Below the pieces are notes generated by a model that was not told where the DNA came from, made no database searches, and saw only the letters and a list, made by a program, of their open reading frames with translations. From a virus, in UHGV virus genome UHGV-0188933: a DNA stretch of 18,246 nucleotides. One strand, 5' to 3'. Of the stretch, positions 1-11,812 are shown piece by piece. A program made the position numbers and the translations under genes. Numbering within the stretch: the first letter of the stretch is position 1; each line of letters begins with the position of its first letter.

Positions 1-166
1 TGCATTTATCAAGTGTTTCCTTCATTGATATCCCGAGAGCATCAACATGCAATGTTGTAGGGATGGCAATTTTTACGCCCGTTTTGCTTTGCTCGACATA
101 AAGATATCCATCTACGATATCAGACCACTTCATTTCGCATAAATCACCGACTCGTTGCCCGGTACA
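1..166 (-). pseudogene. int: lambda-type tyrosine integrase, internal fragment (N-terminal part missing; C-terminal part continues left of the window)
   Basis: Complement translation of 2-166 reads TGQRVGDLCEMKWSDIVDGYLYVEQSKTGVKIAIPTTLHVDALGISMKETLDKC, which I recognise as the central region of lambda Int-family integrases. The frame runs off the left edge. Int-like sequence stops near 166, where the + strand O-like frame begins. Confidence 0.7.
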
Positions 167-847
167 GGGAGCTATCGGACAACTGGACGCCCGTCGCTGG
201 TCAGAGAAACATTCATCCCCGACAACAAAGTTCGGAGCTTATTACGGACTTTTGAGTCGAAAGGGATGCTTAATATTTGCGCGATGGGGAAGAAATTTAG
301 CCTGTTTACAATCGTTAAATATGACGATTTTCAGTCAAAAAATTGTCCAACGGTTGTCCAACGGTTGTCCAACGCAAACACCAGTAATGGTGCGGCTCTC
401 AGCGGAGATTGTCCAACGGTTGTCCAACAGTTGTCCATAAACAATAATATAAATAATATCTCTAATACTGACGTATTAGAGAGTGCCACAGCAGACAAAA
501 AGTCTGACAAGAAAAAACCTTCCGTCAGCTGTCAGGATGTTGTCGATGCTTACCACGAAATCCTTCCTGAAGCGCCAAGAATCCGCGCACTGAATGACAA
601 GCGTAAAAACCAGATCCGAACGTTCTGGCGCAAAGCCGGAGTAATAACACGCCAACTTGACGGGCATGGGTTCACGATGCAGGACTGGAGAAATTATTTG
701 AGCTACGTTGGCGAAAATTGCCGATGGATGTTCGAAGAGCGCCCAAACCATCAACGCGGAACCGTCTGGCACAAAAAGGGATTTGATTTCCTGCTTAACG
801 ATAATACCTACCTGAAAGTTCGTGAGGGTGAACACGATGACCGATAA
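155..847 (+). CDS. O-like replication initiation protein, probably 5'-truncated (start uncertain; candidate starts TTG 155, ATG 266)
   Basis: Open frame follows a TAA at 140-142. Six 11-bp iterons and an AT-rich tract lie inside the coding region, as in lambda O/ori. It sits immediately upstream of a DnaB-type helicase (P22 gene 18/gene 12 style arrangement). No room for an N-terminal iteron-binding domain upstream of the iterons. Confidence 0.55.
   Translation: MPGTGSYRTTGRPSLVRETFIPDNKVRSLLRTFESKGMLNICAMGKKFSLFTIVKYDDFQSKNCPTVVQRLSNANTSNGAALSGDCPTVVQQLSINNNINNISNTDVLESATADKKSDKKKPSVSCQDVVDAYHEILPEAPRIRALNDKRKNQIRTFWRKAGVITRQLDGHGFTMQDWRNYLSYVGENCRWMFEERPNHQRGTVWHKKGFDFLLNDNTYLKVREGEHDDR
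343..441. repeat. origin iterons: 6 copies of TTGTCCAACGG-like 11-mer in two triplets (343-375 and 409-441)
   Basis: Direct tandem repeats ttgtccaacgg, ttgtccaacgg, ttgtccaacgc, then after a 33-bp spacer ttgtccaacgg, ttgtccaacag, ttgtccataaa. Confidence 0.8.
442..481. promoter_or_regulatory. AT-rich tract plus 9-bp inverted repeat (ctctaatac/gtattagag, 460-481) next to the iterons; putative unwinding element of the origin
   Basis: Sequence acaataatataaataatatctctaatactgacgtattagag lies immediately 3' of the iterons, matching the iteron + AT-rich + palindrome layout of lambdoid origins. Confidence 0.55.
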
Positions 848-1856
848 TTTTTATGCGCCGCCCCATAGCATCGAGGCAGAGCAGGCGGTGATTGGTGGAT
901 TGCTTCTGGATGATGACAGCAGTGAGCGCGTCCAGAAAGTTCTGGCGATGCTGAAGCCTGATTCATTTTACAGCCGACCACACAAAATCCTTTTCGAAGA
1001 AATAACCAGAATGCACCGGGAGCAAAAGCCAGTAGATGGCCTGACGCTTTTCGATGAACTGGAGCGTAAATCGTTAACGGCGTCTGTTGGCGGTTTTGCT
1101 TATATCGCTGAGATCGCAAAGAACACGCCAAGCGCAGCAAACATCGTTGCCTATGCAATGCAGGTTCGTGAAACCGCAATGGAACGCTACGCCATCAACC
1201 GCATGACTGAAGCGACGGAATTGCTCTATTCCCGCAACGGAATGACTGCAACGCAGAAGTACGAAGCTATTCAGGCGATTTTCACGCAACTGACAGACCA
1301 TGCAAAAACCGGATCGCGTCGCGGCCTTCGCTCATTTGGTGAGGTCATGGAAGACTGGGTTAGCGACCTTGAGAAGCGATTTGACCCGTCAGGCGAACAA
1401 CGAGGAATGAGCACAGGGATCCCATCTCTGGACAGGATGCTGTCACCGAAAGGTCTGGTGAAAGGCTCTCTGTTCGTCATTGGCGCTCGCCCTAAGATGG
1501 GGAAAACGACGCTATACAGCCAGATGGCAATCAACTGCGCAGTGCATGAGAAAAAGCCCGCTCTGATGTTCAGTCTTGAAATGCCAGGCGACCAGATACT
1601 GGAAAAGCTGGTAGGACAGAAGTCAGGTGTTAACCCGAATATTTTTTACATTCCGGCGACAAATGACGCTGATGACGGCTATCAGGGTGATTACGATGGT
1701 GACTTCAACAGGGCGATCGAAACAGCCAATCGCTTGAGTGAAATCGACCTGCTTTACATCGACGACACGCCGGGATTATCTCTGGCTCAAATCGTCAGCG
1801 AAAGTCGTCGAATCAAGCGAGAAAAAGGATGTGTTGGCATGATTCTGGTCGATTAG
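837..1856 (+). pseudogene. DnaB-family replicative helicase, ended by in-frame TAG at 1854-1856; lacks the C-terminal part of the RecA-like domain
   Basis: N-terminal PPHSIEAEQAVIGGLLLD and SVGGFAYIAEIAKNTPSAANI are DnaB N-domain signatures; Walker A is GARPKMGKTT; the ORF stops at ...GMILVD*, right where DnaB has ...IDYLQLM. ATG at 837 is preceded by GAGGG. Same-frame codons continue 1857-2039 but do not look like DnaB. Confidence 0.75.
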
Positions 1857-2040
1857 AGAACGTGCGAGGAAAACAAGGTGATTGACCAAAATCGAAGTTA
1901 CGAACAAGGAAGTGTCGAGCGAGCTTTAACGTGCGCTAACTACGGTCAGAAGCTGCATGTGCTGGAAGTTCACGTGTGTGAGCACTGCTGCGCAGAACTG
2001 ATGAGCGATCCGAATAGCTCGATGCACGAGGAAGAAGACG

Positions 2041-2763
2041 ATGAATGAGTTAATAAATGGCAATGCCATCAAAATGACAAGCATTGAAATCGCTGAGTTG
2101 GTTGGTAAGCGTCATGACAATGTGAAACGTACCATCGAAACGCTGGCTAAAAATGGTGTTATCCGGCTTCCTCAAATTGAGGTTTCCGAAAGAATCAATA
2201 ACTTAGGGTTCAATGTTCAGTACGAGCATTACGTCTTCGAAGGCGAACAAGGTAAGCGAGACAGTATTGTCGTTGTTGCCCAGTTGTCGCCGGAATTCAC
2301 CGCTCGCCTTGTTGACCGCTGGCGAGAGCTTGAAGAAGCTGCGGTTAATATCCCCAAAACGCTACCAGAAGCGTTGCGCCTTGCTGCTGATCTTGCTGAG
2401 CAGAAAATGCAACTGGAAAACCAGCTCGCAATTGCCGCACCTAAAGTTGAGTTTGCCGATCGCGTTGGCGAGGCCAGCGGAATTTTGATTGGAAACTTTG
2501 CAAAGGTTGTCGGTATTGGTCCAAACAAACTGTTTGCGTGGATGCGCGATCACAAAATCCTTATTGCTTCAGGTTCCCGGCGCAATGTGCCAATGCAGGA
2601 ATATATGGATCGCGGCTATTTCACAGTGAAAGAAACAGCGGTCAATACAAATCACGGAATACAGATATCGTTCACCACAAAAATCACCGGGCGCGGTCAA
2701 CAGTGGCTGACCAGAAAGTTGCTCGATAACGGAATGCTGAAAGTAACAGGAGAGGCTGCTTAA
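2041..2763 (+). CDS. phage antirepressor (Rha-type N-terminal domain plus KilAC-type C-terminal domain)
   Basis: 240-aa ORF; N-terminus resembles Rha-family regulatory proteins and the C-terminal half resembles antirepressor KilAC domains. Start overlaps the upstream stop (ATGA). Confidence 0.6.
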   Translation: MNELINGNAIKMTSIEIAELVGKRHDNVKRTIETLAKNGVIRLPQIEVSERINNLGFNVQYEHYVFEGEQGKRDSIVVVAQLSPEFTARLVDRWRELEEAAVNIPKTLPEALRLAADLAEQKMQLENQLAIAAPKVEFADRVGEASGILIGNFAKVVGIGPNKLFAWMRDHKILIASGSRRNVPMQEYMDRGYFTVKETAVNTNHGIQISFTTKITGRGQQWLTRKLLDNGMLKVTGEAA

Positions 2764-4172: not shown

Positions 4173-4247
4173 GGGTCAGTCGTATAAAGGTCATTACGGA
4201 AGGCTGTTAACCTTCTTATCGTGGTTCGAGTCCACGCTATCCCGCCA
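4173..4247 (+). tRNA. tRNA-Asn-like element (anticodon GUU), possibly degenerate
   Basis: Perfect T-arm cgtgg-TTCGAGT-ccacg, perfect anticodon arm gaagg-CTGTTAA-ccttc (U33, anticodon GTT, A37), U8, A14, GG in D-loop, 3' CCA at 4245-4247. Acceptor stem has two mismatches (gggtcag vs ctatccc) and D-stem one. Confidence 0.45.
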
Positions 4248-4709: not shown

Positions 4710-5126
4710 GCTGCGCGTCAGAGGTTCGATTCCTTTGCCCGCTCCAGTAAAAGCTTTCCAGTCTGCGATGATGGGTTCCCCGGAGTGACTGGAAAGCGAC
4801 CTGGTTTTGAATGGGCGCTGCTTTTTGCAAAATTGCTGTGTGAAAATACTGACCTTTGGGTTCAGCGCTCATCCAAAAGCATCACGTGAATTCACCAACG
4901 CTCATGTACTCTCCAGGAAACAATAAGTGATTCTGAAAAGTTCCGGTTAGATATTGCCCCGGTCACCGGATGATTTTATCTTTTGGTTCGTGGTGAATCC
5001 CCCTATGCGGCGGGGCGTCCAGTCAAACTTTTTTGTCCAGGTTTGTTTGCGCGGAACTAGTCGGCTGGGGCTGTTCCACCGGGAGGCACCCGGCGCCACC
5101 TCCTTGACGGTATTGTTATTTTTCAT

Positions 5127-5153
5127 GCCTGTTCGTCCGAGCAGGCTTTTTTT
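5127..5153 (+). terminator. intrinsic terminator about 410 bp upstream of holin (tR'-like)
   Basis: 8-bp stem (gcctgttc / gagcaggc with one G-U), 4-nt loop, then TTTTTTT. Confidence 0.6.
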
Positions 5154-5563
5154 GCCCGCATTATCTTCATTGAAAACTGGCAACTCAGAGAATCATCCAA
5201 ATTAAAAAAGCAGCAACGAGAGCGATTACTAATACATTCTTCGCTTTTTCTCTTCTGCTGGCCTTCACAAAAGGATTCACTATCCGGCAGTGGCTACACA
5301 CAAGTGATTCTGGGTTAATTAACTTTCCGCAGTAGGGGCAGGGCTTGATAATCATTGGTACTAATTAAGTTGTGAGAACGTAGTCTCATTTAACCACATT
5401 TATCGAGTTGTTTTACTAATGGTCTAGTTATTTCAGACATATTCATCAATTTCAGGCTCACGGGAATCATCCGCTACGTGCTTTGTTGATAAATCCAGCC
5501 CGTGAAGCCTGACCCTTTTCAAACACACACACAGCACCATCCGGAAAATCGGAGGTGAGGCCT

Positions 5564-8089: not shown

Positions 8090-8245
8090 ATGGCAAAGCT
8101 CACCGACAAACAAGAGCTGTTTGCCCGTGAGTACCTGAAAGATTTAAACGCCACACAGGCAGCTATCAGGGCGGGTTGGGCAAAAGCTCAACAACATGCC
8201 GTATTACCGCGCGAAACAATACGCGCAGATGCTTGGCATCGATGA
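8090..8245 (+). pseudogene. terminase small subunit, N-terminal stub (51 codons)
   Basis: MAKLTDKQELFAREYLKDLNATQAAIRAGW... is the conserved N-terminal helix-turn-helix of Terminase_2-type small subunits; frame ends at 8243-8245 after diverging. SD ggag 8 nt upstream. Confidence 0.7.
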
Positions 8246-9833
8246 AAACACGCTGATGGCGATGCGGCGCGGCATGAATGGCTTTACCGCCGATTACCAG
8301 TCGATGCTGCAAAAGACAGGGTTCAACGCTGATAAAGCGGCTGTTCAGTCCAACAAATTCATGACGTCCATGCGCGGGCTTACGTCGCTGTTCGGCATCA
8401 TGCGGGACAAGATCGGCTCAAACCTCGCTGGTGGCCTGGCTGGTTCGCTGGACAGCCTGCGGCGGCGCATCCTCGACAATTTCCCGAAGATTGAAGAGAC
8501 GCTGACCAGAGTTATTAAAGGCGTGATCTGGCTTGCGAACGCATTCACGAGAATGGCGTGGCGGCTGATACAGGGCGCTGGCTCTGTCATCGACTGGTGG
8601 AAGCGTCTTGACGATGGCAGTAAAAATCTGCTGAAAATATTCGGTGCTCTACTGGTCGCATGGCGTCTGCTTAATTCTGCGTTCCTGAAATCCCCGATTG
8701 GAATTATCACCACACTGATTCTGGCGATCGGATTGCTGTACGACGATTACCAGACGTGGAAAGAGGGCGGTAAAAGCCTGATTGACTGGTCCAAATGGCA
8801 GCCAGAAATTGAGCAGGCAAAGAAGGTGTTCAAGTGGCTGCGCGATAAGTTTCTGGAGCTCAAGGACAACCTCGGCGGCTGGAAAAATACGCTCACCATC
8901 CTGTTTGGCTTTCTGGCTGGTGCGAAGCTGGTCTCCATGCTCACTGGCATCGGGCGACTTGTCGCCGGATTTATGGGGCTTGGTAAGGCAATTGGCGGCT
9001 CTATTGGTGGGCTGGGTAAGCTGGCGCAGGGGATCGCACAGCTGGCAATCAAGAATCCATGGTTGCTTATGTTCATTCCTGCCAACAATACGCCGACCAC
9101 CAGTGAAGAAATGGCGTCGATTGGCGGTATAGGCAGCAATATCGTACCTGAAAGGCAGCAGGCATATGAGGCGCTGAGAAAGGAAAATCCCGGCAAAGAC
9201 TTTTTCACTGATGAGCAAATCCAGCGAAAAATTCAGGAGATGGGACTGGAGCCGGAGCAGCGAGCGCAGTCGGTTAAGCGACCTCAGGCGACGGCCCAGG
9301 GCAAGGTATTGCTCGACTGGATGGGGCCAATGTTCAATAAACTGGAGTCGCTTTATCAGCTGCCAGCTGGCCTGTTGAAAAGCGTGGCGATCACCGAGTC
9401 GGGTGGTAACCAGTTCGCCATATCCGGCGCAGGCGCGAAAGGACTGTTTCAGTTTATGGATGGCACGGCGCGCGACATGGGCCTGCGTGGGAATGATGTA
9501 TTCGACCCGGAAAAGTCAGCTCAGGCAGCCGCTAAGTACCTCAGCCAGCTGTTGCGGCAGAACGGCGGAGACCTTAGCAAAGCACTGGCATCATATAACT
9601 GGGGGATCGGGAATGTTAAGCGTTATGGAATGGGGCTAATGCCGCAGGAAACGCGCAACTACATTCCGAAAGTGATGAGCAATATGCCCACCAGCGCCCC
9701 GGTGATTCAGCAGGAAACGAACATTAACATCCACGGCGTTTCCGATCCGCGCGAGGCTGCCCGTTTGACTGTTGACCGTCAAAAGGGCGTGAATTCACAG
9801 TTAACCCAGCAACTCCCCGCAGGACCGAGATAA
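8196..9833 (+). CDS. tail tape measure protein, C-terminal portion, with lytic transglycosylase (SLT) domain; N-terminal part absent
   Basis: Typical TMP low-complexity Gly/Ala/Leu segments (LAGGLAGSLDSL, GKAIGGSIGGLGKLAQGIAQ). C-terminal ITESGGNQFAISGAGAKGLFQFMDGTARDMGL...ASYNWG is an SLT signature. Frame opens only at 8148, just inside the terS stub. Confidence 0.75.
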   Translation: MPYYRAKQYAQMLGIDENTLMAMRRGMNGFTADYQSMLQKTGFNADKAAVQSNKFMTSMRGLTSLFGIMRDKIGSNLAGGLAGSLDSLRRRILDNFPKIEETLTRVIKGVIWLANAFTRMAWRLIQGAGSVIDWWKRLDDGSKNLLKIFGALLVAWRLLNSAFLKSPIGIITTLILAIGLLYDDYQTWKEGGKSLIDWSKWQPEIEQAKKVFKWLRDKFLELKDNLGGWKNTLTILFGFLAGAKLVSMLTGIGRLVAGFMGLGKAIGGSIGGLGKLAQGIAQLAIKNPWLLMFIPANNTPTTSEEMASIGGIGSNIVPERQQAYEALRKENPGKDFFTDEQIQRKIQEMGLEPEQRAQSVKRPQATAQGKVLLDWMGPMFNKLESLYQLPAGLLKSVAITESGGNQFAISGAGAKGLFQFMDGTARDMGLRGNDVFDPEKSAQAAAKYLSQLLRQNGGDLSKALASYNWGIGNVKRYGMGLMPQETRNYIPKVMSNMPTSAPVIQQETNINIHGVSDPREAARLTVDRQKGVNSQLTQQLPAGPR

Positions 9834-10435
9834 TGGATATTTTATCAGCGATTTTTCGCCAGCAATCCCGGCGAATTGGCCTGCTGATCCCCAGCGTGGT
9901 CGTTTCCGAAAAGCATTCTGATGCGCTCGAAATTACTGAGCACCCGGTGGAGAAGCCAACAACGAATAGCGCGTCGGGTTTCATCGCCGATCATGCGTAT
10001 AAGCGCCCCAGCGAAGTCACGATGGAATGCGGCTTCGCAGGTGGCGGTTCGTTGCTGGACTTCATTGATACATCGTCAATCGGCCTCAGCGCCGGACTTA
10101 GCCCGAAAGAGACCTATCAGCAACTACTGGATCTCCAGTCCTCTCGGGTGCCGTTCGATGTAGTGACCGGAAAGCGGGTTTACAGCAATATGCTGGTGCG
10201 AGCCATCGAGGTGACAACGGATAAAACCAGCGAGAACGTGCTGAACTGCACGCTTACCCTGCGTGAAGTGATCATGTCGCAGACGCAGAGCGTTAGCGTT
10301 GCAGATAAATCAGATATGCAGGATGGCGTCAGCACATCGGCGGTGCAGAATTCCGGGATGAAATCCACTACACCGCCAAACGAATCCTTGCTGAGCCAGC
10401 TGGGCGGAAGCGTTACATCAGCATTCGGGGGATGA
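9833..10435 (+). CDS. tail/baseplate assembly protein (family uncertain)
   Basis: 200-aa ORF translationally coupled to the TMP stop; position between TMP and hub. Confidence 0.4.
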   Translation: MDILSAIFRQQSRRIGLLIPSVVVSEKHSDALEITEHPVEKPTTNSASGFIADHAYKRPSEVTMECGFAGGGSLLDFIDTSSIGLSAGLSPKETYQQLLDLQSSRVPFDVVTGKRVYSNMLVRAIEVTTDKTSENVLNCTLTLREVIMSQTQSVSVADKSDMQDGVSTSAVQNSGMKSTTPPNESLLSQLGGSVTSAFGG

Positions 10436-10436
10436 T

Positions 10437-10742
10437 ATGCAGTTTAACGAAATACCGCTTTCTCCTGACAATCAGCAGTTCCGCGTTTTGCTGGGCAATA
10501 CCACGTATACACTCAGGATCATCTGACGTGATGCGGCTGGCTGGATTATGGACGTGATGGATAGCGGCGGTGCCGCGCTTCTCTCTGGCGTACCTCTACT
10601 GACCGGCGTAAACCTTTTACGACAATATCCACAGCTTGGCATTGATGGCGCGCTGGTGGTGGCGACCGATAAGGGCGCACCAGACGAGCCCACCAAAACC
10701 AACCTCGGCACATACAGCCACCTCATTTTCGTACAGGAGTAG
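10437..10742 (+). pseudogene. small tail protein interrupted by in-frame TGA at 10524-10526
   Basis: Single frame reads MQFNEIPLSPDNQQFRVLLGNTTYTLRII*RDAAGWIMDVMDSGGAALLSGVPLLTGVNLL...VQE, verified codon by codon; the TGA would be Trp with one G-to-A change. Confidence 0.5.
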
Positions 10743-10744
10743 AA

Positions 10745-11812
10745 ATGTCTCTTAACTGGATGCGCCATTTTGAGCTGCAACTGTTGGACCAGAACGGGCA
10801 GGGCGTTTCCCTGTCTGACTTTAAGGTCACGTTCCAGATCGAGTGGGCAGACACACGCTGGCCACGCGTGGCGAACGTGAAAATTTACAACCTTTCGACC
10901 GATACCACGAACAAGATACTGGGGCAGGAGTTTGCAAAAATTCGCATCATTGCCGGGTATGACGGTATTGCGCCGGATGTTGATGCGAGCCAGGTTGGTG
11001 TCGCCCGGGAGATTTCACCAGACCAGGTAGGGCAGGTGAACGGTCAGAACTACGGCCTGATATTTGACGGTGATATTCGCTTCACCGTCACCGGGAAGGA
11101 CAACATCACCGATTCCTGGGTGCTGATTCAGGCCATCAGTAACCACGAAGCGTTCCTCTACGCGACTACCATCACCACGCTTGCCGCTGGTTATACCGTT
11201 GCGGACCTGCACCGGGCGACTATGCAGGATTTCAACGCGTTCGGCGTGACGCAGGGCATTACCGGTGACTTTCCTGATACCGTGTTTCCTCGTGGCCGTG
11301 CGATTTATTCATCCACCCGTAACGTGATGGATAATATTGCTGCGCAGTGCAAAGCGACATGGCAGCTGGTGGATGGTCAGGTCCAGATGGTGCCGGAGGA
11401 TAAATATATTCACGAAGCCATTGTGTTGAATGCCGATACTGGCCTGATCGGTATGCCGCAACAAACGATGGGCGGCGGAGTAAACGTGCGGTGCCTGATA
11501 AACCCAAACATCCGTATTAATGGTCTTATCCAGCTCGATCAGGCTTCGGTGTACCGCGCCGCGCTCGGTAATAGCGAAATAGCACAGTCGCCCGGTCGCA
11601 TCACCGAAACAGAAGAGAACGGCAACCGCGTACTGACCGGCACAACGTCACAGGCTGCCAGCATTGCGACAGATGGCGTTTATATCGTCAAAGCTATCGA
11701 TTATACTGGTGACACCAGAGGTCAGGCGTGGTACATGGATTTGATGTGTTTTGCGCGTGGGGCTCGTGACCTGATTAGCCAGTCGACTATAGCTCGCTCA
11801 GGAGGAAATTAA
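10745..11812 (+). CDS. baseplate hub-like tail protein (Mu gp44 / P2 gpD position)
   Basis: 355-aa ORF immediately upstream of the spike/gp46/gpJ/gp48 module; assignment by synteny and size. Confidence 0.4.
   Translation: MSLNWMRHFELQLLDQNGQGVSLSDFKVTFQIEWADTRWPRVANVKIYNLSTDTTNKILGQEFAKIRIIAGYDGIAPDVDASQVGVAREISPDQVGQVNGQNYGLIFDGDIRFTVTGKDNITDSWVLIQAISNHEAFLYATTITTLAAGYTVADLHRATMQDFNAFGVTQGITGDFPDTVFPRGRAIYSSTRNVMDNIAAQCKATWQLVDGQVQMVPEDKYIHEAIVLNADTGLIGMPQQTMGGGVNVRCLINPNIRINGLIQLDQASVYRAALGNSEIAQSPGRITETEENGNRVLTGTTSQAASIATDGVYIVKAIDYTGDTRGQAWYMDLMCFARGARDLISQSTIARSGGN

What the first reader, a model, noticed from the sequence alone, without database searches (positions are those of the whole stretch)
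1..270. Integrase fragment fused to a 5'-truncated O gene: immunity and recombination region missing
The minus strand at the left edge encodes a central segment of a lambda-type integrase. Its similarity ends near 166, exactly where the + strand O-like frame begins. Nothing between int and the origin encodes xis, recombination genes, N, repressor, cro or cII. The O-like frame has no room for an N-terminal iteron-binding domain upstream of its own iterons. The element therefore looks non-inducible and replication-initiation defective, yet keeps an antirepressor.
Basis: partly seen in the sequence, partly recalled or inferred. Interest (0 to 1): 0.5.

Follow-up and report, generated by a model that had tools for sequence, protein, structure and literature searches.

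The report
Deletion scar in dead lambdoid prophage
The left edge of the window is the scar of a roughly 10-kb loss that joined the tail end of a lambda-type integrase gene to a beheaded replication-initiator gene, inside an ordinary decayed prophage stuck at the E. coli lambda attachment site.

Summary
Window 1-164 (minus strand) is lambda/434/Huey-type int from codon T209 onward, at 96-99% nucleotide identity. The HK75/HK022/Sf6-type O gene (296 aa) resumes at window 181, which is O nt 225, so its first 74 codons are gone.

The join is not direct. Window 164-181 is an exact 18-nt relic of a cro gene, with 1 nt of microhomology on each side. About 10.2 kb is therefore missing: int N-terminus, xis, the pL operon, N, cI, most of cro, cII and the O 5' end.

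Extending leftward and rightward shows attL and attR intact between ybhC and ybhB of E. coli. The element is about 18.7 kb.

It carries two further deletions. The DnaB-like helicase is cut at aa 339 of 478. A small-terminase fragment abuts an N-terminally truncated tape-measure gene.

This is an ordinary, multiply deleted cryptic prophage, so interest is low.

One by-catch is not ordinary. The helicase breakpoint lies on a nucleotide-precise hotspot used by at least 11 independent deletions in other prophages. Its mechanism is unexplained.

The parts
1..164 (-). 5' end of a truncated lambda-type integrase gene. The window holds codons T209 to about C263. The fragment runs on to K356 and its stop, 284 nt left of the window.
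   Evidence: Pfam Phage_integrase matches positions 34-168 of 172. The amino-acid sequence is identical to the Huey Int C-terminus.
164..181 (+). 18-nt relic of a cro-type HTH gene (ACAGGGAGCTATCGGACA). The A at 164 is shared with int and the A at 181 with O.
   Evidence: Exact 18-mer found in 7 related phage contigs, on the same strand, 1602-1668 nt upstream of the helicase start, inside an ORF reading ..LAKAVGCTQGAIGHWESG..
181..847 (+). 5'-truncated O-like replication initiator gene (O nt 225-891; codons 1-74 are missing). Gene callers pick ATG 266, giving 193 aa.
343..441 (.). Origin iterons: two clusters of three 11-nt repeats TTGTCCAACGG (343-375 and 409-441).
   Evidence: Sf6 annotates the same stretch as rep_origin.
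442..482 (.). A+T-rich stretch with a 10-bp inverted repeat, following the iterons.
   Evidence: Sequence. The inverted repeat at 459-482 is listed.
837..1856 (+). 3'-truncated DnaB-like helicase gene: aa 1-339 of 478, ending in the Walker B motif ..ILVD, then a stop supplied by the junction.
   Evidence: Pfam DnaB_C matches only positions 1-136 of 255.
1856..2048 (+). Right partner of the second deletion: the last roughly 27 nt of ninE, then an intact ninF (1878-2048).
   Evidence: About 1.27 kb of the HK75 layout is missing (helicase 3' end, tR2, ninB, most of ninE).
2041..2763 (+). Ant/Rha-type antirepressor gene of the nin region.
   Evidence: PHROG 63 at E = 1e-99; Pfam Phage_pRha and ANT.
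8090..9833 (+). Third deletion: a small-terminase fragment joined (around 8175-8196) to a tape-measure/transglycosylase gene that lacks its N-terminal part. All head, portal, sheath and tube genes are absent.

Best explanation
The window is almost the whole of an 18.7-kb remnant of a lambdoid prophage. It sits at the lambda attachment site of E. coli, between ybhC and ybhB, with attL and attR intact.

At its left end, about 10.2 kb of the ancestral phage has been lost. The loss runs from int codon 208 leftward in transcription terms (int N-terminal half, xis, the whole pL operon, N, repressor, operators, most of cro, cII) to nt 224 of the O gene.

The scar has three parts: int...GGTA | 17 nt of cro | ACTGG...O, with one base of microhomology at each joint.

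I favour a single replication template-switch event: int to cro, copy about 17 nt, then cro to O. This origin is inferred, not shown. The alternative is two illegitimate deletions that happened to end 17 nt apart.

What is lost or kept (shown by sequence):
- No complete integrase and no excisionase.
- No repressor, cro, N, pL or pR.
- An initiator missing half of its N-terminal winged-helix domain.
- A helicase cut inside its ATPase core.
- No head or packaging genes.

Consequences (inferred):
- The element cannot excise, be induced, start replication at its own origin or make particles.
- It keeps cis sites (att sites, iterons) and trans-activatable late genes (Q, lysis cassette, baseplate and fibre genes).
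- A superinfecting relative could still act on those sites and genes.
For: Breakpoints and partners.

Cro relic. The chance of an exact 18-mer match in about 3 Mb is roughly 4e-5. It also lies on the right strand and in the right map order.

O family length and missing N-terminal part.

Domain layout: the AlphaFold model gives an N-domain at 27-125, a disordered linker at 130-188 and a C-domain at 189-293. Foldseek top hits are all winged-helix DNA binders, though weak. The N-domain and iterons swap as one unit at O nt 481 in other alleles.

Int remnant, attL, attR and host flanks.

Helicase truncation.

Structural-gene deletion.

No repressor-type gene is called anywhere in the element.

No sigma-70-like promoter lies upstream of the O fragment.

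Same sequence in at least four independent samples.
Against: Non-inducibility, lack of excision and lack of replication are inferred from gene content. None was measured.

Single event versus two successive deletions cannot be told apart from one sequence.

The retained int and O fragments carry no stop codons or frameshifts. That fits a recent deletion but also does not exclude residual use of the O C-terminal domain.

The O model has only moderate confidence (mean pLDDT 64). The fold matches are weak (E 0.05-0.2).

No complete E. coli genome among 5,426 carries this junction. Its host lineage is known only from metagenome and draft assemblies.
Confidence: 0.9

Rival explanations
1. Two independent, successive illegitimate deletions (cro-to-O, 929 nt; int-to-cro, about 9.2 kb) rather than one complex event. 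The structural outcome and functional consequences are the same.
For: Each joint on its own looks like an ordinary illegitimate deletion with 1-nt microhomology. The same element carries two more separate deletions, so repeated deletion clearly happens here.
Against: Two unrelated deletions ending 17 nt apart, without the second erasing the first joint, would be a coincidence of roughly 1% or less. Short copied inserts between breakpoints are the usual mark of template switching. This point rests on general knowledge, not on a test here.
Confidence: 0.3
2. The truncated replication module is kept because it is useful. The origin iterons and the O C-terminal and helicase N-terminal fragments could act as decoys that titrate or poison the initiator or helicase of superinfecting HK022/Sf6-type phages. 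Alternatively, the origin could be fired in trans.
For: Iterons and the A+T-rich region are intact. The O C-terminal domain and helicase N-terminal domain are open reading frames without damage. An unrelated cryptic prophage near sbcB keeps almost the same O'-helicase' segment.
Against: No promoter is detectable upstream and pR is deleted. The recurrence of the helicase endpoint comes with very different C-terminal fusions (0 to 480 foreign residues). That argues for a DNA-level cause rather than selection on the protein. The fragments are as diverged from each other as intact alleles are.
Confidence: 0.07
3. The apparent truncation is a mosaic boundary: a different, unrecognised N-terminal allele of O lies upstream of 178.
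For: O alleles do swap N-terminal domains, at nt 481 and nt 62.
Against: The sequence upstream of 181 is cro (18 nt) followed by antisense int at 96-99% identity. The frame upstream of 181 has only 9 codons before a stop.
Confidence: 0.01
4. Chimeric assembly joining int and O reads.
For: None beyond the absence of the junction from complete E. coli genomes.
Against: An identical junction appears in contigs from independent ENA, Logan and NCBI-derived samples, 100% identical over up to 11.9 kb. Microhomology of 1 nt cannot mislead a k-mer assembler.
Confidence: 0.01

Closest known systems
Replication region of phages HK75, HK022-type and Sf6 (O-like gp41/gp43 plus DnaB-like helicase gp42/gp44)
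   Same: Nucleotide identity of 98% over window 178-1855. Same iterons inside the initiator gene, same gene overlap, same downstream nin genes including Ant, YbcO, RusA, NinH and Q.
   Different: The window lacks O codons 1-74, helicase codons 340-478, tR2, ninB and most of ninE, and everything upstream of O (cII, cro, cI, N and so on).
Escherichia phage Huey (also 434, HK106, HK97, lambda) integrase
   Same: Identity of 98.8% over window 1-164. The retained 148 residues are identical to Huey Int 209-356. The att core GCTTTTTTATACTAA and the P' arm are the same.
   Different: Residues 1-208 are absent (arm-binding and core-binding domains and the start of the catalytic domain), as are the start codon and xis.
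Cryptic lambdoid prophages of E. coli K-12 (DLP12, Rac, Qin). This comparison rests on my own knowledge and was not tested here.
   Same: Lambdoid remnants fixed in the chromosome by internal deletions. They retain nin, Q and lysis genes.
   Different: Different attachment site (att-lambda), different deletion set, and a contractile-tail baseplate module related to Citrobacter phage Omnitron. This junction is not present in any of 5,426 complete E. coli genomes.
Salmonella-type cryptic P22-like remnant at the same ybhC att site (L149/L150, protein P0276)
   Same: Lambda-like int' truncated within 6 nt of the equivalent position. The immunity region and O are deleted. The same helicase family is joined to antisense int.
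   Different: The host flank is only 80% identical to E. coli. The right partner is helicase nt 842-848, not O. There is no cro relic. Microhomology is GCT(G/A)TC. It is very common (405 index blocks).

Membership tests
Lambda-type tyrosine integrase (functional gene) | Full-length protein of about 356 aa with N-terminal arm-binding and core-binding domains and a start codon | tested here: not met
   Only codons 209-356 remain. Colinearity with Huey, 434 and lambda int stops at window 164.
Lambda-type tyrosine integrase (functional gene) | Catalytic domain (Pfam PF00589) with its conserved residues | tested here: inconclusive
   PF00589 is matched at profile 34-168 of 172, E = 1e-32. The residues are identical to Huey Int 209-356. 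The first 33 profile positions are missing.
Lambda-type tyrosine integrase (functional gene) | Lies next to its attachment site | tested here: met
   The attL core GCTTTTTTATACTAA plus the P' arm lie 74 nt beyond the int stop, next to ybhC. attR lies next to ybhB.
O-like replication initiator (PHROG 345; HK022 gp54 / Sf6 gp43 type) | Complete N-terminal DNA-binding domain (profile positions 1 to about 128) | tested here: not met
   Profile match covers 74-292 of 297, against 1-292 for HK75 O. The conserved block at aa 24-76 is absent. Predicted helix 1 and strands 58-76 are lost.
O-like replication initiator (PHROG 345; HK022 gp54 / Sf6 gp43 type) | Iterons and an A+T-rich origin inside the gene | tested here: met
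   Six 11-nt repeats at 343-441, 98% identical to the Sf6 annotated rep_origin.
O-like replication initiator (PHROG 345; HK022 gp54 / Sf6 gp43 type) | C-terminal domain and an overlapping downstream helicase gene | tested here: met
   PHROG 24933 is matched 1-127 of 127. The helicase start at 837 overlaps the O stop at 847.
DnaB-like replicative helicase (functional gene) | Complete RecA-type ATPase domain | tested here: not met
   DnaB_C is matched at 1-136 of 255, against 1-244 for HK75. The gene ends after Walker B ..ILVD.
Cryptic (defective) lambdoid prophage | Phage DNA bounded by attL and attR at a known bacterial attachment site | tested here: met
   Order is ybhJ-ybhC-attL ... attR-ybhB-bioA. 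The host flank is 99.5% identical to E. coli.
Cryptic (defective) lambdoid prophage | Lambdoid gene order with essential modules missing | tested here: met
   Order is int'-cro relic-O'-helicase'-nin-Q-lysis-terS'-TMP'-baseplate-fibre.
Cryptic (defective) lambdoid prophage | Fails to excise, replicate or form plaques on induction | not testable with these tools
   Needs an induction experiment on a carrier strain.
Phage satellite / phage-inducible chromosomal island | Own complete integrase, own regulator and own replication initiator, plus genes that redirect helper packaging | tested here: not met
   The integrase and initiator are truncated. No repressor-type or capsid-size-redirection gene is called.

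The most novel reading that the evidence does not exclude
The scars of this remnant may not be random decay. Its helicase breakpoint (window 1855) is a nucleotide-precise site reused by at least 11 independent deletions with different partners in E. coli and Salmonella prophages, in both directions. A second such site lies at window 1679-1684. The int and O breakpoints of the finding also fall at a TAYC motif.

This would fit a sequence-specific DNA break, made by a nuclease, a nick or an arrested fork. Such a break would repeatedly disable the replication module of lambdoid and P22-like prophages and be healed by microhomology joining or template switching.
Probability: 0.3. Interest if true: 0.65.

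Novelty: new member of a known kind. Interest (0 to 1): 0.25.

Why it matters
The finding itself is a textbook case of prophage decay and matters little. It documents one more way a lambdoid prophage gets locked into att-lambda.

Two details have some value. First, the 18-nt cro relic shows that the loss of the immunity region was probably a template-switch event, and it identifies the lost immunity type. Second, the helicase breakpoint in the same element led to a reproducible deletion hotspot in a widespread phage helicase gene.

If a defined break mechanism lies behind that hotspot, it would help explain how bacteria, or competing mobile elements, so regularly inactivate prophage replication modules.

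Tried and rejected
- **Junction search in species-representative genomes.** An exact 52-mer across the junction gave no hit.
- **First filler search.** An 18-mer search in viral contigs gave one hit, L008. It lies in an unrelated tail-like gene and was judged chance. The first local search for the filler in Huey, HK75 and Sf6 also found nothing. The source (cro) appeared only after about 120 related loci had been fetched.
- **Domain libraries for the O N-domain.** Pfam and NCBIfam do not recognise it, and PDB sequence search found nothing. PHROGs and a predicted structure were needed.
- **Mobile element at the helicase breakpoint.** Rejected. The HNH gene in H9 sits in ninF. The split helicase in H7 is interrupted at nt 669, not at 1020.
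- **Intein at aa 340 in relatives.** None among the best 150 representatives. All two-piece hits are split at about aa 223.
- **Hairpin at the hotspot.** Folding energy is no better than shuffles, z = -0.1 to +0.8.
- **Chi site.** Only a 6/8 match (TCTGGTCG), read by eye and recalled knowledge; not pursued.
- **Lambda exonuclease pause motif GGCGA(TTCT)** (PMC7496540). It only loosely resembles GGTCGATTAC.
- **Right-kept helicase breakpoints in an unbiased IMG/VR sample.** None found.
- **Literature searches for a described hotspot.** Nothing relevant was found.

Full report
**1. What is at 1-270**

The minus strand of window 1-164 translates to ...TGQRVGDLCEMKWSDIVDGYLYVEQSKTGVKIAIPTTLHVDALGISMKETLDKC. 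At the DNA level it matches int of phages Huey (98.8%), 434 (98.2%) and HK106, HK97 and lambda (96-97.6%). Every one of 42 phage matches ends at window 164.

The plus strand from 178/181 to 847 is 98% identical to the O-type initiator gene of HK75, HK633, Sf6 and many prophages. It is followed by their DnaB-like helicase gene. In HK75 and Sf6 this O gene is 891 nt (296 aa). Window 178 corresponds to its nt 222.

**2. The join is a double junction**

The 13-17 nt between int and O matched nothing in the first relatives examined. After fetching about 120 related phage contigs, I found that the 18-mer ACAGGGAGCTATCGGACA (window 164-181) occurs exactly in seven of them. In each it is on the same strand as O, 1602-1668 nt upstream of the helicase start. 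It lies inside a cro-type HTH gene reading ..LAKAVGCTQGAIGHWESG...

The three-way alignment reads:

| Source | Sequence at the joint |
|---|---|
| int | ...CCCGGTA\|ACAACAG |
| window | ...CCCGGTA\|CAGGGAGCTATCGGACA\|ACTGGACG... |
| cro | ...TGCACA\|CAGGGAGCTATCGGACA\|TTGGG |
| O | ...GATGATA\|ACTGGACG |

Each joint has one shared A. Relative to intact relatives, 929 nt are missing between the cro relic and O nt 225. About 9.2 kb is missing between int codon 209 and cro. The total is 10,180 nt on the Huey map.

An island of 17 nt between two breakpoints is much more likely to come from one template-switch event than from two unrelated deletions. That is an inference.

**3. Extending the sequence**

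The truncated helicase protein is encoded on contigs from several public samples. L003 extends the window leftward. It shows ybhJ, then ybhC, then the lambda attL core GCTTTTTTATACTAA with the P' arm, then the int stop, then 148 int codons up to the breakpoint. These 148 residues are identical to Huey Int 209-356 and carry no stop codons.

L011 extends it rightward. A tail-fibre assembly gene is followed by a P-arm-like sequence, the attR core, ybhB and bioA-D. The host flank is 99.5% identical to E. coli.

The element is therefore about 18.7 kb, core to core, at att-lambda. The window holds all but its first roughly 370 nt and last roughly 70 nt.

None of 5,426 complete E. coli genomes has this junction. 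The window is nonetheless 100% identical to contigs from at least four independent samples.

**4. Is the O family naturally short?**

It is not.
- PHROG 345 ('replication initiation O-like', 297 positions) is matched at 1-292 by HK75 O and only at 74-292 by the window protein.
- Homologues in the 5.8-billion-protein collection are 274-318 aa long. The 193-aa form is this truncation.
- The alignment shows that the window protein lacks the conserved block GKGF..HRQFMDS.LYKDSQAVHLWLHLILKAN....V.TD.G...V.RGQ.
- An AlphaFold model of a full-length homologue (mean pLDDT 64) has three regions. The N-domain spans 27-125: H40-52, strands 58-76, H78-85, H89-101 and a hairpin at 105-119. A disordered linker at 130-188 is encoded by the iterons. 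The C-domain spans 189-293.
- The best Foldseek matches are winged-helix DNA binders (CodY C-domain, TubR, MarR, BlaI), but they are weak at E 0.05-0.2.
- Independent support for the domain logic comes from other alleles. There, the N-domain and the iterons are exchanged together, with the boundary at O nt 481 just after the iterons. The C-domain stays with the helicase.

The window keeps the putative helix-turn-helix and wing but loses helix 1 and the first strands. The fold is incomplete.

**5. The rest of the element**

Helicase colinearity with HK75 stops at window 1855, which is helicase nt 1019, codon 339 of 478, inside Walker B (ILVD|YL). It resumes in the last 27 nt of ninE. DnaB_C is matched at only 1-136 of 255.

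ninF, Ant/Rha, YbcO, RusA, NinH and Q follow. Of these, only Q was shown to match its family profile over its full length. After them come a tRNA-Asn and an STnc100-like RNA, then holin, endolysin, Rz and a KilA-N protein.

A 51-aa small-terminase fragment is then joined to a tape-measure/transglycosylase gene that lacks about 195 N-terminal profile positions. Baseplate, fibre and fibre-assembly genes follow. Part of this module is 91% identical to Citrobacter phage Omnitron.

No head, portal, large-terminase, sheath or tube gene and no repressor-type gene is present. No promoter-like site precedes the O fragment.

**6. Verdict on the finding**

The functional statements remain inferences from gene content. 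The kind of object, a multiply deleted cryptic lambdoid prophage, is well known.

**7. By-catch: a deletion hotspot in the helicase gene**

A different cryptic prophage near sbcB (L016, GCA_907172835.1) has its helicase broken at the very same nucleotide. There it is joined to an endolysin gene. Its O gene is broken 44 nt upstream of the window's O breakpoint.

Proteins at least 98% identical to helicase aa 1-339 that are not full length diverge as follows:

| Divergence point | Proteins |
|---|---|
| aa 339 | P0135, P0136 |
| aa 340 | P0138, P0151, P0152, P0155, P0157 |
| aa 341 | P0137/P0150, P0139 |
| aa 343 | P0154 |
| aa 377 | P0156 |

At the DNA level, eight different sequences follow ...CTGGTCGATTA(C/T)(C). 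The partners include ninE, endolysin, NinI, a gene-46-like gene, P22 gp10-, gp16- and portal-like genes, and the start of lambda-type Q. Where the parent sequence is known, microhomology is 3-8 nt.

One complete E. coli genome (K_EC180) has the reciprocal product: N gene | TTACCTGACAC..., keeping the helicase C-terminus.

In an unbiased sample of 119 IMG/VR contigs carrying the helicase start, 83 are intact and 2 break at nt 1020. One breaks at nt 336, one has a 70-nt internal deletion, and 5 carry an insertion at nt 669.

A second cluster lies at nt 843-848 (GGC|TAT|C|AGGG). L148 and P0140 keep the left side. The very common Salmonella-type remnant L149/P0276 keeps the right side, joined to antisense int only 6 nt from the window's own int breakpoint.

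Several of the fixed ends sit at TAYC:
- helicase site 1, GAT|TAC|C;
- helicase site 2, GGC|TAT|C;
- int, bottom strand, GT|TACC;
- O, bottom strand, GT|TATC.

This motif was defined after the fact and needs an independent test.

The causes I examined did not hold up:
- No strong hairpin.
- No mobile element at the site.
- No intein at aa 340 in relatives.
- Only loose similarity to Chi and to the lambda exonuclease pause motif.

The 1026-nt insertion at nt 669 is an in-frame intein with a LAGLIDADG domain inside Walker A, so homing endonucleases do target this gene. No deletion cluster was seen at nt 669, however. That weakens the homing-nuclease idea for nt 1020. The mechanism is unexplained.

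**8. Scores**

The finding as given is real, correctly read and ordinary. Interest is 0.25, and it is a new member of a known kind. The hotspot is the only part that might surprise a specialist. It is reported as the novel case and as items noticed in passing.

Noticed in passing
window 1853-1857 (helicase nt 1017-1021); also L016, L021, L023-L028, L036, L127: A nucleotide-precise deletion hotspot at the Walker B codons (..GTC GAT TA^C^ C^TG) of the HK022/Sf6-type DnaB-like helicase gene. At least 11 different partners are joined here in E. coli and Salmonella prophages, with 3-8 nt of microhomology. One product is reciprocal. No cause was found.
   Followed up: partly
window 1679-1684 (helicase nt 843-848); L148, L149, L150, P0140: A second recurrent breakpoint cluster (GGC|TAT|C|AGGG) in the same helicase gene, used in both directions by three independent junctions.
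   Followed up: partly
L149/L150 (about L149 4330-4960): A very common cryptic P22-like remnant (405 index blocks). It sits at the equivalent ybhC att site of a host whose flank is only 80% identical to E. coli, probably Salmonella. Its lambda-like int is cut within 6 nt of the window's int breakpoint and joined to helicase nt 842-848 through GCT(G/A)TC microhomology.
   Followed up: partly
equivalent of window 1505/1506 (helicase nt 669); L067, L073, L095, L114, L120, L164, L172, L173, L020: About 8% of related helicase alleles carry a 1026-nt in-frame intein (342 aa, LAGLIDADG_3 and Hint hits). It is inserted in Walker A (GARPKMGK|T). RefSeq annotates such genes as two pseudogene halves.
   Followed up: partly
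L016/L017 (GCA_907172835.1, near sbcB): A separate cryptic prophage at another chromosomal site keeps nearly the same O'-helicase' segment. O is cut at nt 181 against 225 in the window, and the helicase is cut at the same nucleotide. The segment is as diverged from the window (25 differences in 1678 nt) as intact phage alleles are.
   Followed up: partly
window 8090-8245 and 8196-9833: Third internal deletion. A 51-aa small-terminase fragment abuts a tape-measure/transglycosylase gene lacking its N-terminal third. All head, portal, sheath and tube genes are missing, while baseplate and fibre genes remain.
   Followed up: partly
window 8175-11760: The tail and baseplate module is of contractile-tail type (Sheath_initiator, Baseplate_J, E217 gp41-like) and 91% identical to Citrobacter phage Omnitron. 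That is an unusual partner for a lambda-int, HK022-type replication and nin/Q/lysis backbone.
   Followed up: no
window 4173-4247 and 4965-5157: A tRNA-Asn (GTT) and an STnc100-family small RNA lie between Q and the holin gene, in a 1.4-kb stretch without a recognised protein gene.
   Followed up: no
window 437 (O nt 481) and about 60 IMG/VR loci: In many relatives the O N-terminal domain and its iterons (for example ATTACCAGCA-type) are replaced as one block. The boundary falls exactly after the iterons, while the C-terminal domain and helicase stay 97% identical. Iteron copy number also varies (L055, L084, L127; 318-aa proteins).
   Followed up: partly
window 164, 181, 1855, 1680-1683: The fixed ends of the int, O and both helicase breakpoints fall at or next to TAYC (GT|TACC, GT|TATC, GAT|TAC|C, GGC|TAT|C). 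The cro relic is centred on GCTATCGG. The motif was defined post hoc from five sequences and not tested statistically on independent data.
   Followed up: no
L009, L010, L012, L014 (att-lambda region of other E. coli genomes): Other E. coli assemblies carry different prophage remnants at the same ybhC-ybhB site. They share the identical tail-fibre assembly protein but have Mu-like baseplate genes placed directly after portal or terminase genes. This suggests further internally deleted elements at att-lambda.
   Followed up: no
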